Positions 9,061 through 39,777 of a DNA stretch of 64,000 nt are shown here, piece by piece. The stretch spans positions 73,904,001 through 73,968,000 of the forward strand of contig OX597819.1 in the NCBI GenBank assembly GCA_951406725.2. The letters are read 5' to 3'. The notes under the pieces were generated by a model. The model saw nothing but the letters and a program-made list of their open reading frames with translations. It searched no databases and was not told where the DNA came from. Source of the DNA: Octopus vulgaris (Eukaryota). Every line of letters begins with the position of its first letter. Position 1 is the stretch's first letter. The translations under genes were made by a program, and so were the position numbers.

Positions 9061-9271
9061 TGAAATAGAAAGATGAATAATCTTGTTGCAGATTAATCAA
9101 AAGTTTAACCGATACCTTGGTAGCAAAAATCACAGCAGAAGACAGCACGGTTGGAGGTACAACCATATGGTGTTGCAACCGTGCGTTGGTGCGGATAATT
9201 GAATTTTAATATTATTAGTGAATTGAAGAAATGGAGTTGAACGAAGATTGAACAGAAATCGTTTTATTGCA

Positions 9272-9351
9272 TTCTACACGTGTTTCGAAAGGCACAATTT
9301 ACCAAATTCCGATTGAATAAGGAGACCATATTGTGTCTTTCTCTTCAGGAA
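9272..9351 (-). ncRNA. Type I hammerhead ribozyme, intact core (left arm)
   Basis: Mirror image of 9531-9610. Confidence 0.85.
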
Positions 9352-9530
9352 GAAATAGGAAATCCGTTGGAAAAAACAAAAACAGAACAGAGGCGGAGCA
9401 AAACAAATCGAACGAGGCTCCTAAGAGCCCATGGCCAAACTCTTTGGCCATGGGCTCTTAGGAGCCTCGTTCGATTTGTTTTGCTCCGCCTCTGTTCTGT
9501 TTTTGTTTTTTCCAACGGATTTCCTATTTC

Positions 9531-9610
9531 TTCCTGAAGAGAAAGACACAATATGGTCTCCTTATTCAATCGGAATTTGGTAAATTGTGCCTTTCGAAAC
9601 ACGTGTAGAA
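9531..9610 (+). ncRNA. Type I hammerhead ribozyme, intact core
   Basis: UUC-CUGAAGA-[GAAAGACACAAU/AUUGUGCCUUUC]-GAAAC ACGU GUA-GAA. Confidence 0.85.
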
Positions 9611-9665
9611 TGCAATAAAACGATTTCTGTTCAATCTTCGTTCAACTCCATTTCTTCAATTCACT

Positions 9666-9760
<95 letters not shown>

Positions 9761-33426: not shown

Positions 33427-34534
33427 GACGAGCTTCTTTCAGTTTCCGTTTACCAAACCCACTCACAGGGCTTTGGTCGGCCCGAGCCTATAGTAGAAGA
33501 CATTTGACCAAAGTGCTACGCTGAGGGACTGAACCCGGAACCATGCGGTTGGGAAGCAAGCTTCTTACCGCTTGGCGGCGTCCTTCCAGCACTTTACGTC
33601 CTGAGTTCAAATTCCGCCGGGCTCAGCTTTGTCTCTCATCCTTTTAGGGGTCAAAAAAGGAAGGTGATGTCATAGCCTACAACCTAATTTCTCTTCTCAA
33701 AATAAGTAGACTTGTGCCAATATTACATTTTAGACGAACAGCAGACGTATTTTCCATAAACTCATCAAACTCCGTTTGGTATTGTTTTTTCATCTGATAA
33801 GAGATTTCACACTTGACGAAAAAAAAAAAAAAAATGAAAAAAAAAAGAAAAAAGGTTTTGTATTTGCTCTGCGAGATTCTTGATTTAAAGTTGTTTGTTG
33901 AAACAGGTTTTGTTATATCTTGTGATGTCTCATTGTGCCAGGAAATACCTCCAAAATTCCAACTACACCACCAAAATAAAACAAACAAACAAACAAACAA
34001 AAACAACCCCGAAACAAAACAAATAGGATCATTATTTCCAGTTTTTGTGATCTACATTTTGGAAAATATATGAACGTCATAAATTCCATTCTTCCTCTCC
34101 TTTGAGACGAACAACGATGCTTTTAACTCTTAATTGCTGTTTTTGTTTAGCTCTAAGTAAGTTACGACCAAGCAAACTTATTAATAGAATTCCAGCGTTG
34201 ACCTTCTCTCTTCTACATACATACATACATACATACATACATACATACATACATACATACATACATACATACATACATACATACATACACGCACAATACG
34301 CATATATATATATACTTTTATTTGTTTTAGTCATTTGACTGCGGCCATGCTGGAGCGCCGCCTCTAGTCGAACAAATCGACCCCCAGGACATATTCTTTG
34401 TAAGACTAGTACTTAATCTATCGATAGCTTATGCTGAACTGCTAAGTTACGGGGACGTAAACACACCAAGTGATGGTGGGGTGACAAACACAGACACAGA
34501 CACACACACACCACACACACATACACACACACAT

Positions 34535-34584
<50 letters not shown>

Positions 34585-34639
34585 ACATGGAGATTGGGAA
34601 GTTAATAATTGTTTATTATTAACAACAAATTAGTCATCA

Positions 34640-34734
34640 TTCCCTTACAGCTGTTTCAATTAATACTCAGTAACTTTTAAGTAAATATTAAATTTATACT
34701 TCTATGACCTGAGCATAATATCTTCAGAGAGGAA
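34640..34734 (-). ncRNA. Type I hammerhead ribozyme, intact core, in PLE 3' UTR
   Basis: UUCCUCU-CUGAAGA-[AUUAUGCUCAG/CUGAGUAUUAAU]-U-GAAAC AGCU GUA-AGGGAA. Confidence 0.8.
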
Positions 34735-34939
34735 AACAACATACCCTTGGATGTTTTATATGTGTTTATGGATTCATTATAGCAGACTGAATGATATTGT
34801 TTATGATTTGTATTTTTATATGTTCGAGCGAGGAGTTTGCAGGTTGATTGGAAATAAGAGGTATTATACAAGAAAACTGAATTATAAAGAGAAAGAATAA
34901 GATGAAAGTAGTTAAGGTGGGGGTGGGCTGAAAGATTAT

Positions 34940-35294
34940 TTAAGATCAATAAAAAGGAATTTGACATATGTCTGCAAGAAAAAACTCTTTCATCTCTCGA
35001 ATTTACAAGAGAACCGTTCATTTTCATTATTTTATAACTTTCTTCTAGGCATAATTTGCAGATCTTGTTATTATGTCTATAAGAGGGAGCCGAAGAAAGT
35101 ATTTTCCAACAAATCGAGTAATCTATATTACTTCTTTTCAGTTGGCAAACCTTTTTGGATAGACCTGTGCTATTTTCTTTTCTAGGGTCATTAAAGTATG
35201 ATCTGTGATTATTTAATTTTAATTTGAAAGAATTTTGTGTACATCCGATGTAAGTAAATTTAGAGAGATTATGGGTAATAATTGCTACTTGGTA
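34940..35294 (-). pseudogene. Penelope-like element GIY-YIG endonuclease (Naiad-like)
   Basis: Stop-free frame: YQVAI..FTYIGCTQNSFKLKLNNHRSYF..TGLSKKVCQLK..YSICWKIL..Y..CKLCLEE..LVNSRDE..SCRH. It runs in frame into ORF 34677-35027. A frameshifted CNCR..CC motif lies near 35520-35555. Confidence 0.88.
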
Positions 35295-35871
35295 TTATTT
35301 TGCCCTTATATATCTTTTTTATTATCTTTTCCCCCTTTTTTCTTCTTTCTTATTCGTAACCTATTCCATTTGTATGATATGTATATTAAAAAAACTACCT
35401 CTCTGAATTATCTCAATTTTTATTTATTAATTTTGTAATTTTTTTTGTGTTTCTTACAAATCTATTTATATTAACCAAAATTTTACAGATGATATACGCT
35501 TATACTTACAGTAATTCTAAGTGTACAACAATCACTTCTACAAATTGCACAGACTATCATAGATATAGTTTATTTATCATTTTGGTTATGCATGTAAATA
35601 GATTTATAGTATTTCCACACTTTTTTCTCCTTATTAGTATTAATATCATTTTAATTTTTCTATCATAATAATTATCATTACTTCTTCTAACGTCTTTTCA
35701 ACTTAATATTAACACCGTTTAATATAATTAATAGATTATACATTATATTTTATATTTCACTTATAAAACTTATAAACTTTATACATATACGTATGTCATA
35801 GATTATTCATGTTATTATACAAATGTATATGGATGTGCATATGTGTGTATACATCTGCATATGCGCACACA

Positions 35872-35928
<57 letters not shown>

Positions 35929-35935
<7 letters not shown>

Positions 35936-36350
35936 TTAGAGACAAAATCACTATTAGGCAAATCAAATAATGAAAAACTTAAGCCAATACATAAGATTAT
36001 TTCATTTATATTATTTAAATATATAACAAAATTAGTAAAAAAAATATAATTAATATCACACTACGATCGTTTCATGGCTGCTAACTTCTTCAAAAATTTG
36101 AACAAGTTAGCAGCCATGAAACGATCGTAGTGTGATATTAATTATCTTTTTTTAATAATTTTGTTATATATTTAAATAATATAAATGAAATAATCTTATG
36201 TATTGGCTTAAGTTTTTCATTGTTTGATTTGCCTAATAGTGGTTTTGTCTCTAATTTAATATAATATAATATTTTACTATAAAATTGGATTCAATCCTAA
36301 ATCTGATTTTTCCCTGTAAGTTTGGATTTATTCCTAATATTTATTATTAT
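35929..36350. repeat. Palindrome (centre about 36095, arms about 165 bp) plus a 90-bp single-copy extension, between (TA)n tracts
   Basis: Arms are reverse-complementary. Each carries the 3' half of an HHR (CAU-GAAAC GAUC GUA-GUG). Same family as 47841-48185. Confidence 0.92.
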
Positions 36351-36429
<79 letters not shown>

Positions 36430-36448
36430 ATTCGTTAGCTACTGCATA

Positions 36449-36486
36449 TCTTTCTGTTGAAGAGCGTAGGCTCGAAACGTTAAAGA
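36449..36486 (+). ncRNA. Minimal type I HHR, family B (core CUGUUGA)
   Basis: UCUUU-CUGUUGA-A-GAGC GUAG GCUC-GAAAC GUU-AAAGA. Confidence 0.72.
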
Positions 36487-36583
36487 CTTGTTTTATTTAT
36501 ATTTCCTGAGCGCCATACTAATACAATTGTTCGTTTGTTTTCCACCTGCCTTCGTCTTCTGTTTATTTTCATAAAGCTTCCCG

Positions 36584-36626
<43 letters not shown>

Positions 36627-36632
36627 TTATGT

Positions 36633-36665
<33 letters not shown>

Positions 36666-37376
36666 CAAACATATATGTACATATCCTTTTATCATATTTC
36701 GTAGTTTCTGTTCCTTTTGAATGCACCAGTATACAAAAAATGTATATACATATGTTTAAATAATATTCTTTTCTTATATTGGAGATTTATACATATGAAT
36801 TACTTCTCGTATCTTTATTATACTTATTTTTCTCGCACTTATCACTCCATAATAATAAAAACACTTTTTTATTACATCCACTTTCATCACTATGTTATAG
36901 AAGTTAGAAAATTATTTATACAAATATCACTACGGTCTTCTATCTCTTTTATCTATATGTAGATTCTCAATTCATATTGTATCTTTTTAAAAATATATAT
37001 CTAACATAGTTAAAATATAAAAACGTGTATTTCTTCAAAAAATCTTTCTTACGGCAGTGTTCCAGCATGGCCACAGTCACATGACTTTGCCATTTTAATC
37101 CCGAGCAAGGCCGGGTATCTCTGCTTGTACCTTATAAACCAACATTCCATTCTTTTATCAACTGCAAACCTCCCTTGTTTGTATTTAAATTTCCAGTATC
37201 ATCTCAATTCAATTTATTAATTTATTGTTCTAAGTCTATTTACCTGCGCTATCTTATTTCCAATCAGCATGCAAACTCCTCGCTCGAACATATAAAAATA
37301 CAAATCATAAACAATATCATTCAGTCTGCTATAATGAATCCATAAACACATATAAAACATCCAAGGGTATGTTGTT

Positions 37377-37471
37377 TTCCTCTCTAAAGATATTATGCTC
37401 AGGTCATAGAAGTATAAATTTAATATTTACTTGATAGTTACTGAATATTAATTGAAACAGCTGTAAGGGAA
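37377..37471 (+). ncRNA. HHR copy with mutated core (CUAAAGA)
   Basis: Inverted duplicate of 34640-34734 with a G5-to-A change. Confidence 0.75.
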
Positions 37472-37547
37472 TGATGACTAATTTGTTGTTAATAATAAAC
37501 AATTATTAACTTCCCAATCTCATGTTCTTTTTCCTCTTATATATATA

Positions 37548-37595
<48 letters not shown>

Positions 37596-37780
37596 CACAT
37601 ACATACATATACATATATATGTGTGTATGTGTGTGTATGTGTGTATGTGTGTGTATGTGTGTGTGTGTTGTGTGTGTGTGTCTGTGTCTGTGCTTGTCAC
37701 CCCACCATAACTTGGTGTGTTTACGTCCCCGTAACTTAGCAGTTCAGCATAAGCTATCGATAGAATAAGTACTTATCTCA

Positions 37781-38198
37781 TCTACTATCCTCAGATTCTT
37801 TCCCATCAAACTTTGGTTTCCAATATTTTATTATTTTTATTCAGCTCGCAAGTTCGTCTGTCCCTATAAAATGTTAGTGTTTTGCTGTCTGCCTTGAAGC
37901 AGACCTTTCCGTTGTCACTGCTTGATATTTATGATTGATCTTTCAAAATATTTTTCTTTCTCAACTTACTCAAGATCTTTTGTTGTTTATAAATGGGAGA
38001 GAGATAGATAAAGAAAAATAGAGAGTAAGAGAAAGCGAGGGAGAGTCCGAGAGAAATGAAGAGTAAGAGAGTGGGAAAGTGAGAGAGAAAGGAGAGAGAA
38101 ACAAAGAGGGAAAATGTGGTGATAAAAAACAGAAAAGAAGCAACAGAAAGTAACAACCACACTCTTACCTGCGCGTGGAGCGGGCCACCTTAGGCTAG
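37781..38198 (+). mobile_element. Putative non-autonomous Helitron
   Basis: A|TC start; subterminal GC hairpin cctgcgcgtggagcggg; CTAG|T end. A similar 3' end (cccgagcaaggccggg...cttgt) lies at 37099-37128. Confidence 0.5.
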
Positions 38199-39158
38199 TA
38201 TATATATATATTACTCTTTTACTGGCTTCAGTCATTTGAGTGTGGCCATGCTGGAGTACCATCTTTTATTTGAAGAAATCGCCCCCTGGACTTATTCTTT
38301 GTAAGCCTGGTGCTTATTCTATCGATATCTTCTGCCGAACCGCTAAGTTACGGAGACGTAAACTCACCAACACCGGTTTCTAAGCGATGGTGTGTGTGTG
38401 TGTGTGTGTGTGTGTAACAAACACAGACACAAATGCACACTCATAGGATAGACTTCTTCCAGTTTCCACAACGAAATCCACTGACATGGCTATAGTAGAA
38501 GACACTTGCCCAAAGTGCCATGCAGTGGGACTGGACCCGGAACCATGTGGTTCGGAAGCAAGCTTCTTACGACACAGCCAATCCTGGAAAAAATGTATTG
38601 AACGAAGCAGAAGACAGAAGCTCGTTCTATTTGGAACGTAATAATAACAGGAAATACTATAGCAAATAGTATGTTGATTGTGTTGCGTAAGTCTGAGTCA
38701 GAGCCGGAACACTACTGTCCGTTCATTAGACATTATGTTTTTATCTTGTTATTTTTAGAGTTCGTTGTGTAGCAGAGAAGCTGATTTTGTAGCCACGCAG
38801 TACCGGGTTCAGTCCAACTACACGGCACCTTCAGCAGGTGTCTTCTGCTATACACACGGGCTGAGCAAAGCCTTGTGTGTGTATTTTGTAGACAGAAACT
38901 GTGTGGAAGCTCGTCGCGTGGCTTTGATTGCCAGATGAACGGCGCATTGTATTCATGAGAGCAAAGCACTTAATTCGATGTTGCTTCAGGCCACTCGGCT
39001 GTAAATGGCTCACTCTGAAACGGACAAGACTTCCAATCAGGGGACAACGTTGGCATGCTCGCCTAGCCAGTGGGGTGGCATCATTCAACAGCTAAAAACA
39101 ATGTAAAGCGCATTGTGACCAGTGATGTATTACAACGTCCGTAGTCTGGTCAATCACT

Positions 39159-39743: not shown

Positions 39744-39777
39744 TTTCCGAAGAAGAGCGTCTGCTCGAAACGTTAAA
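39744..39777 (+). ncRNA. Minimal HHR, family-B relative (core CCGAAGA)
   Basis: UUU-CCGAAGA-A-GAGC GUCU GCUC-GAAAC GUU-AAA, followed by the family tail tttcctgagcg...ctaatac. Confidence 0.65.

What the first reader, a model, noticed from the sequence alone, without database searches (positions are those of the whole stretch)
34408..37773. Naiad-like Penelope relic with inverted pLTR that co-duplicated flanking host DNA
The minus strand gives GIY-YIG (YIG..FK..NH..CxLCLxE..NxRxE..CRH), then UTR, intact HHR, (TA)n and a SINE. An inverted copy 2.4 kb away repeats the UTR and HHR plus the microsatellite and about 90 bp of SINE with the same private variants (tcgatagcttatgctgaactgc, shared deletion). 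This links the HHRs to a PLE protein and suggests 3' read-through transduction or a local fold-back duplication. The ATG-based ORF track misses most of the domain.
Basis: partly seen in the sequence, partly recalled or inferred. Interest (0 to 1): 0.75.

Follow-up and report, generated by a model that had tools for sequence, protein, structure and literature searches.

The report
Local inversion fusing two Penelope relics
This is ordinary transposon debris: a small local inversion likely copied about 450 bases in mirror image and joined the endonuclease stub of one dead Penelope-type (Hydra clade) jumping gene to the ribozyme-bearing end of another, so it does not show that these elements carry host DNA along.

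Summary
The mirror-image copy is real (34408-34859 against 37252-37773; 9 substitutions in 365 aligned bases; shared private SINE variants). The interpretation mostly fails. The GIY-YIG is C-terminal: other copies carry RT upstream and the RWK, DKT and CxCx5C motifs, so it is Hydra clade, not Naiad. The hammerhead segment is not this element's 3' end. Other copies continue into a different 2.3-kb UTR with their own hammerhead; the segment belongs to a sister family and meets the EN at a 3-base microhomology. Most of the 'spacer' is the EN family's own UTR in opposite orientation. Ten other inverted pairs of the hammerhead family are 79-95% alike, have the tail on one arm only (a rule this scan noted before on other DNA) and share no host flank; here neither arm has the tail, and the right end cuts into a young repeat through a 7-base filler. 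One run labelled as another organism lacks the fusion. Best reading: one DNA-level inversion with breakpoint duplication and deletion (template switch 3-1-2-4 or staggered break), long after insertion. The right hammerhead has a core mutation. Low interest.

The parts
34331..34500 (+). Complete copy of an abundant SINE; its last 93 nt plus tail are duplicated
   Evidence: Repeat families D6-D8, D14; 23 other copies compared
34408..34859 (.). Left arm of the inverted duplication (SINE end, (CA)n(TA)n, family-B 3' end)
34580..34859 (-). 3' end of hammerhead family B (sister Hydra-type family), short end, no tail
34636..34736 (-). Predicted type I hammerhead, intact core, 63-nt helix II region, palindromic CAGCUG helix III
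   Evidence: motif and fold; activity untested
34857..34859 (.). Junction J1: family-B end fused to family-A EN at a 3-base microhomology (TCT)
   Evidence: bridged by contigs in 5 of 6 runs laid
34857..35295 (-). 5'-truncated fragment of Hydra-clade family A: C-terminal GIY-YIG and about 100 nt of UTR
35295..35296 (.). Junction J2: blunt head-to-head join of EN fragment and family-A UTR; likely an old Penelope-type 5' inversion
   Evidence: 7 of 20 family-A loci have such a partner; age inferred
35296..37053 (+). Family-A 3' UTR piece (starts about 380-410 nt after the EN fragment's end in other copies), with later inserts
37054..37127 (.). Junction J3, a 40-nt SINE head (minus strand) and a Helitron-like 3' end
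   Evidence: sequence; J3 bridged in run X18; Helitron label from recalled end features
37128..37535 (+). Family-B 3' end, 123 nt longer on its 5' side than the left arm; hammerhead core mutated (37386)
   Evidence: contig 37101-37299 in run X3
37252..37773 (.). Right arm of the inverted duplication, ending inside the SINE
37774..37780 (.). Junction J5: 7-nt filler resembling 37786-37793; likely a locally templated insertion
   Evidence: origin inferred
37781..38199 (+). Young repeat with Helitron-like 3' end, cut on its 5' side by J5

Best explanation
The two arms are mirror copies of one stretch, and a single local DNA rearrangement likely made them, long after the transposons had inserted. 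Inferred ancestral order on the plus strand: SINE, microsatellite, family-B end (minus), Helitron/SINE scrap, family-A UTR (minus), then head-to-head the family-A EN fragment (plus) running on into its own UTR, then the young repeat. Synthesis or repair would have left this template at 34859, joined the opposite strand at the end of the EN fragment through a 3-base microhomology (J1), copied 2.9 kb backwards to the equivalent of 34408, and returned inside the young repeat with a 7-base filler (J5). That inverts the middle, duplicates about 450 nt and deletes the rest of the family-A UTR and the 5' part of the repeat. This is the 3-1-2-4 template-switch geometry; repair of staggered breaks gives the same product and cannot be told apart here. 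Shown: the parts, their orientation, the junction sequences, relative ages. Inferred: the ancestral order, that J2 and J3 are older, and the repair pathway. The structure probably has no function.
For: (1) Arms differ by 9 of 365 bases (2.5%, 95% CI 1.1-4.6), while each is 84-87% alike on average, at most 90%, to 34 other family-B copies. (2) In 10 other tail-out pairs of family B the arms are 79-95% alike (79-88% for the 8 arms over 100 nt) and 0 of 10 share a collinear host flank. (3) In 9 of 10 pairs exactly one arm has the full 136-150-nt tail, the tenth has 24 nt on one arm; here both arms have 0. (4) All 15 EN copies that reach the J1 position continue into other sequence; 13 of 20 ten-kb loci show the window's spacer UTR downstream in the same orientation and 0 of 20 show family B there; 5 of 20 reach family A's own 3' end, which holds a different hammerhead. 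(5) J5 lies inside a repeat whose copies are 95-97% alike to the window's; all 19 fetched copies go on at least 113 nt further 5', and that part is not in the window. (6) 7 of 20 family-A loci have a head-to-head inverted partner at the 5' truncation, so J2 needs no new event. (7) In run X20 a 337-nt contig fits 34857-35004 with 1 difference only from its letter 190, i.e. it leaves the window exactly at J1. (8) No closer donor copy among the scored candidates.
Against: The 189 unmatched letters of the X20 contig were not shown, so their identity as family-A UTR is inferred. X20's three EN pieces differ by only 1 in 335 bases, less than the arms differ from each other (P = 0.002 if the rate were 2.5%); this needs error-prone copying, copying from another allele, or bias from listing only close, unbroken contigs. 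7 of 9 substitutions are on the right arm, which fits error-prone copying by either a repair polymerase or an RT. J2 and J5 are not bridged in the rows listed (tables were cut). The published 3-1-2-4 events were modelled as short-range; this one copies 2.9 kb. Genome searches scored only 40 candidates each.
Confidence: 0.7

Rival explanations
1. Two DNA-level steps: an inverted duplication of 2.4 kb (UTR to SINE; new junctions J2 and J5), then a deletion at J1 that removed most of the left arm of the unstable palindrome.
For: Gives the same sequence; J2 is blunt and cannot be dated; long inverted repeats are deletion-prone (established knowledge).
Against: Needs three new junctions instead of two; head-to-head junctions like J2 are common in family A (7 of 20).
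Confidence: 0.15
2. Penelope-mediated 3' transduction in cis: a read-through RNA (UTR, hammerhead end, microsatellite, 93 nt of SINE) was reverse-transcribed and pasted next to its donor in opposite orientation; J1 is a later deletion.
For: The right arm looks like a 5'-truncated copy ending past the element's end; 7 of 9 substitutions are on it; capture of host DNA between pLTRs is reported in a rotifer (PMC3846280, passages).
Against: The 3' junction is inside a repeat with a filler, not at (TA)n where family ends lie. No two of 41 family-B loci share a collinear downstream flank; the only high-identity pair is a young SINE at different offsets. A purified Penelope RT starts at two fixed internal sites of its RNA (PMC11167929, passages), which would leave a downstream flank uncopied. 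Needs an added deletion.
Confidence: 0.08
3. The right-hand SINE piece or the whole right arm is an assembly error.
For: Microsatellites on both sides; J2 and J5 not bridged in the listed contig rows.
Against: The arms differ at 9 places; arm-specific letters are read without difference in independent contigs (34646-34732 and the variants at 37267/37269 in X3; 37441-37508 in X2); J1 and J3 are bridged.
Confidence: 0.05
4. An original inverted pLTR made at insertion, as the title says.
For: Tail-out inverted copies are the family's habit (10 of 40 loci) and a known Penelope feature (PMC8557442 section 6).
Against: Arms are far younger than the copy, neither has the tail, host flank is shared, and EN and hammerhead come from different families.
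Confidence: 0.02

Closest known systems
Hydra clade of C-terminal EN+ Penelope-like elements (Craig et al. 2021, PMC8557442; Hydra-1_Obim listed for Octopus bimaculoides in its supplement)
   Same: RT then C-terminal GIY-YIG; RWK, DKT, CxCx5C, CxxC and CxH motifs; hammerhead in the pLTR; (TA)n targets; inverted 5'-truncated partners.
   Different: Another family: the N-terminal residues shown for Hydra-1_Obim differ from L063 (compared by eye); N-rich linker; 3' UTR about 2.3 kb; helix II region 51-64 nt in family B against a 22-nt one in the listed Hydra-1_oBim motif; family-B tail 136-150 nt against the 30-40 nt reported.
Naiad elements (PMC8557442)
   Same: Related GIY-YIG endonuclease, (TA)n preference, inverted partners, present as remnants in cephalopods.
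   Different: Naiad EN is N-terminal, with CxC and DKA motifs and no canonical hammerhead; here EN is C-terminal, DKT, hammerheads present.
Four-point template switch, type 3-1-2-4 (Loytynoja and Goldman 2017, PMC5453318)
   Same: [quoted passage not shown]
   Different: Modelled there as short-range events in human and chimp; here 2.9 kb copied and several kb probably lost; ancestral allele only partly seen.
Inversions with inverted duplications at breakpoints from staggered breaks (Ranz et al. 2007, PMC1885836)
   Same: Inverted duplication at an inversion breakpoint, reported for 17 of 29 Drosophila inversions.
   Different: Those are chromosome-scale; this is about 3 kb, with a deletion at the other end.

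Membership tests
Naiad PLE | GIY-YIG N-terminal to RT | tested here: not met
   RT thumb and YRDD lie upstream of the EN in other copies; UTR follows it
Naiad PLE | DKA motif | tested here: not met
   L063 reads FDKTGNLY
Naiad PLE | No canonical hammerhead | tested here: not met
   Family A has a hammerhead core in its 3' end (L076; similar in L065, L071, L063)
Hydra PLE | C-terminal GIY-YIG after RT | tested here: met
Hydra PLE | RWK motif near N-terminus and DKT | tested here: met
   L063: RMRWKALFFD and FDKTGNLY; seen in the one locus that reaches this far, not in the window copy
Hydra PLE | CxCx5C linker; CxxC and CxH around the conserved E and N | tested here: met
   CNCRNPNTC-type linker in 12 of 20 loci; CKLC and CRH in the window
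Hydra PLE | Hammerhead in pLTR and (TA)n insertion | tested here: met
   L063 has a direct 5' copy of the family-A 3' end before its ORF; ends run into microsatellites
Hydra PLE | Phylogenetic placement of the RT | not tested
   No reference proteins were available to the tools; protein search found nothing, Pfam no GIY-YIG hit
Hydra PLE (family B, the hammerhead segment) | pLTR leading into a Hydra ORF | tested here: inconclusive
   1 of 29 tail loci (L243) runs into an ORF start with RLRW*ALYFD, 43% over 47 aa to L063, E 2e-9; its RT and EN were not found; 0 of 18 sister-EN loci show family B downstream
Penelope inverted pLTR made at insertion | Arms as old as the copy, tail on one arm, no shared host flank | tested here: not met
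Type I hammerhead ribozyme | CUGANGA and GAAA core, helices I-III, UH cut site | tested here: met
   Left copy only; core pattern found in 20 of 34 other copies, 19 with CUGAAGA; right copy has G5A
Type I hammerhead ribozyme | Self-cleavage | not testable with these tools
   Such motifs cleave poorly and probably as dimers (PMC4209133, passages)
Template switch 3-1-2-4 | Spacer inverted relative to the ancestral allele | tested here: inconclusive
   Only the J1 side is seen in a possible ancestral allele (X20)

The most novel reading that the evidence does not exclude
A Hydra-type Penelope enzyme copied a read-through RNA past its own fixed start sites, carried about 190 nt of flanking microsatellite and SINE, and pasted it beside the donor: 3' transduction in cis by a Penelope-like element.
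Probability: 0.08. Interest if true: 0.5.

Novelty: new member of a known kind. Interest (0 to 1): 0.15.

Why it matters
Little. It is a caution: a hammerhead next to a GIY-YIG stub can be a rearrangement chimera, and a young inverted repeat in Penelope debris need not be a pLTR. It adds two Hydra-type families with long UTRs and an unusually long tail, and a kilobase-scale example of an inversion with breakpoint duplication. If the transduction reading were true it would show that Penelope RT can start downstream of its usual sites.

Tried and rejected
Rfam at gathering score: 0 matches. Pfam on the 205-aa frame: only a weak unrelated hit, E 0.11. Homologue search with the 112-aa EN among longer proteins: 19 candidates, none scored; weak evidence. 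Family B against family A's 3' end: no match better than E 0.12. Walking family B upstream gave at least 1.6 kb of AT/CA-rich sequence and no ORF. Cross-matches between A-downstream and B-upstream lie at scattered offsets and were read as SINEs, not checked one by one. L036/L084 seemed to share flank on both arms, but at 70% it is two separate SINE insertions. I first took 37781 for the natural start of a Helitron sitting in (TA)n, which would have favoured retrotransposition; one search showed that other copies continue further 5', so I dropped it. Run X20 has no cover over 35448-35681 and 36852-36968; at depth 5-9 this proves nothing, but my model predicts that sequence there. The left flank 33600-34200 has no long match elsewhere. 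A paper search for Penelope plus transduction, flanking, retrotransposition (listing only, 15 of 18 shown) named no study on the subject; this is not proof that none is in print.

Full report
Setting. The window is G000:C6:73904001-73968000 in a 2.8-Gb genome.

Observation. The arms 34408-34859 and 37252-37773 are real. Outside the microsatellite they differ at 9 of 365 bases. They share private SINE variants: 8 positions against the majority of 23 other copies and a deletion of about 10 nt.

What the protein is. A genome search with 34585-35300 split into two kinds of match, query 6-444 and query 442-714; among 46 matches only the window spans both. Upstream of the EN in other copies lie an N-rich linker ending in CNCRNPNTC and an RT thumb with YRDD. 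L063 is nearly whole: a direct 5' copy of the family's 3' end, then RMRWKALFFD, FDKTGNLY, RT and EN. These are the marks of the Hydra clade in Craig et al. 2021 (PMC8557442; I read sections 6 and 11, passages, and searched its supplement), which lists a Hydra family in Octopus bimaculoides. Naiads have the EN at the N-terminus. No tree was built.

What the hammerhead segment is. In other copies the EN runs on into a different UTR. After about 380-410 nt that UTR matches window 35296-37053 on the plus strand (13 of 20 loci), and it ends about 2.3 kb after the EN fragment in its own hammerhead. Family B was found downstream in the same orientation in 0 of 20 loci; one has a partial copy the other way round. 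Family B is an abundant repeat (1416 candidates, 40 scored) with a short end and a 136-150-nt tail. One of 29 tail loci runs into a Hydra-like ORF start, so B is probably the pLTR of a sister Hydra family. The hammerhead core is CUGAAGA, a long helix II, GAAA, palindromic CAGCUG, UA; the left copy is intact and the right has G5A. That G5A inactivates hammerheads is recalled. The folds (-17.7 and -11.2 kcal/mol) had no shuffle control.

Is the mirror copy a pLTR? Tail-out partners occur at 10 of 40 family-B loci (two of the 40 were picked because a partner was visible, and less DNA was held upstream for four). Their arms are 79-95% alike, none shares collinear host flank, and the tail sits on one arm only (I ran this count after reading the same rule in earlier notes, having seen the pattern). 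The window's arms are 97.5% alike, share flank and both lack the tail, while each is at most 90% alike to 34 other copies. The duplication is therefore much younger than the insertion.

Junctions. J1 (34857-34859) joins family B to the EN through TCT. J2 (35295/6) is blunt and head-to-head; 7 of 20 family-A loci have such a partner. J3 (37053/4) joins the UTR to a SINE head. J5 ends the SINE piece at 37773, adds 7 nt resembling 37786-37793, and enters a young repeat at 37781 (all). All 19 fetched copies of that repeat continue further 5', and the missing part is not in the window.

Reads. Contigs bridge J1 in X1, X2, X3, X18 and X19 (4 studies, 3 organism labels; one may be the assembly's source), J3 in X18 and the 37252 boundary in X3. 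In X20, a fourth label, a contig fits the EN with 1 difference and leaves the window exactly at J1; its other 189 letters were not shown. J2 and J5 are not bridged in the rows listed. Against a simple clock, X20 is closer to the window in the EN (1 of 335) than the arms are to each other.

Mechanism. With J2 and J3 old, two new junctions explain everything: leave at 34859, join the other strand at the EN's end, copy back 2.9 kb to 34408, return inside the repeat. PMC5453318 (passages) names this order 3-1-2-4: an inverted repeat around an inverted spacer. Staggered-break repair gives the same (PMC1885836, abstract only). I put 0.7 on this, 0.15 on duplication then deletion, 0.08 on transduction in cis, 0.05 on assembly error, 0.02 on an original pLTR. 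Against transduction: the junction is not in (TA)n, no two of 41 family-B loci share a collinear flank, and Penelope RT starts at fixed internal sites in vitro (PMC11167929, passages). Other papers seen as passages: PMC3846280, PMC4209133, bioRxiv 10.64898/2026.07.22.740005 (its supplements are closed and might list related families).

Verdict. Known clade, known kind of rearrangement, no sign of function. Interest 0.15.

Noticed in passing
family B loci L081-L120, L184-L212: The one-sided tail is 136-150 nt, against 30-40 nt reported for Penelope-like elements; family A seems to have a similarly long one (L063, L071, L076).
   Followed up: partly
L243:7385-7880 (minus): Family-B end and tail run straight into a Hydra-like ORF start that breaks off after about 65 codons; the only link of family B to a protein found.
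   Followed up: partly
window 9209-9673: A 461-nt near-perfect palindrome (99.3%) ending at a (TA)n tract, with hammerhead-like words in its arms; probably a young head-to-head Penelope-type insertion.
   Followed up: no
window 35927-36263: A 337-nt palindromic insert of a very abundant repeat inside the family-A UTR.
   Followed up: no
window 36437-36585 and 39744-39777: Short copies of another very abundant element with a minimal hammerhead-like motif (degenerate core, GAAACGUUA).
   Followed up: no
L093 (G000:C11:51318120) and window 37095-37127: A Helitron-like 3' end abuts family B at the same base in both loci: a shared old insertion or a preferred site.
   Followed up: no
G000, matches at 42-44% identity: Dozens of identical-scoring GIY-YIG matches in open frames up to about 890 aa point to a young, possibly active, related Penelope family.
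   Followed up: no
G000:C11:12549975, 12576717, 12607292: Three similar EN copies about 27-30 kb apart, probably a segmental tandem duplication.
   Followed up: no
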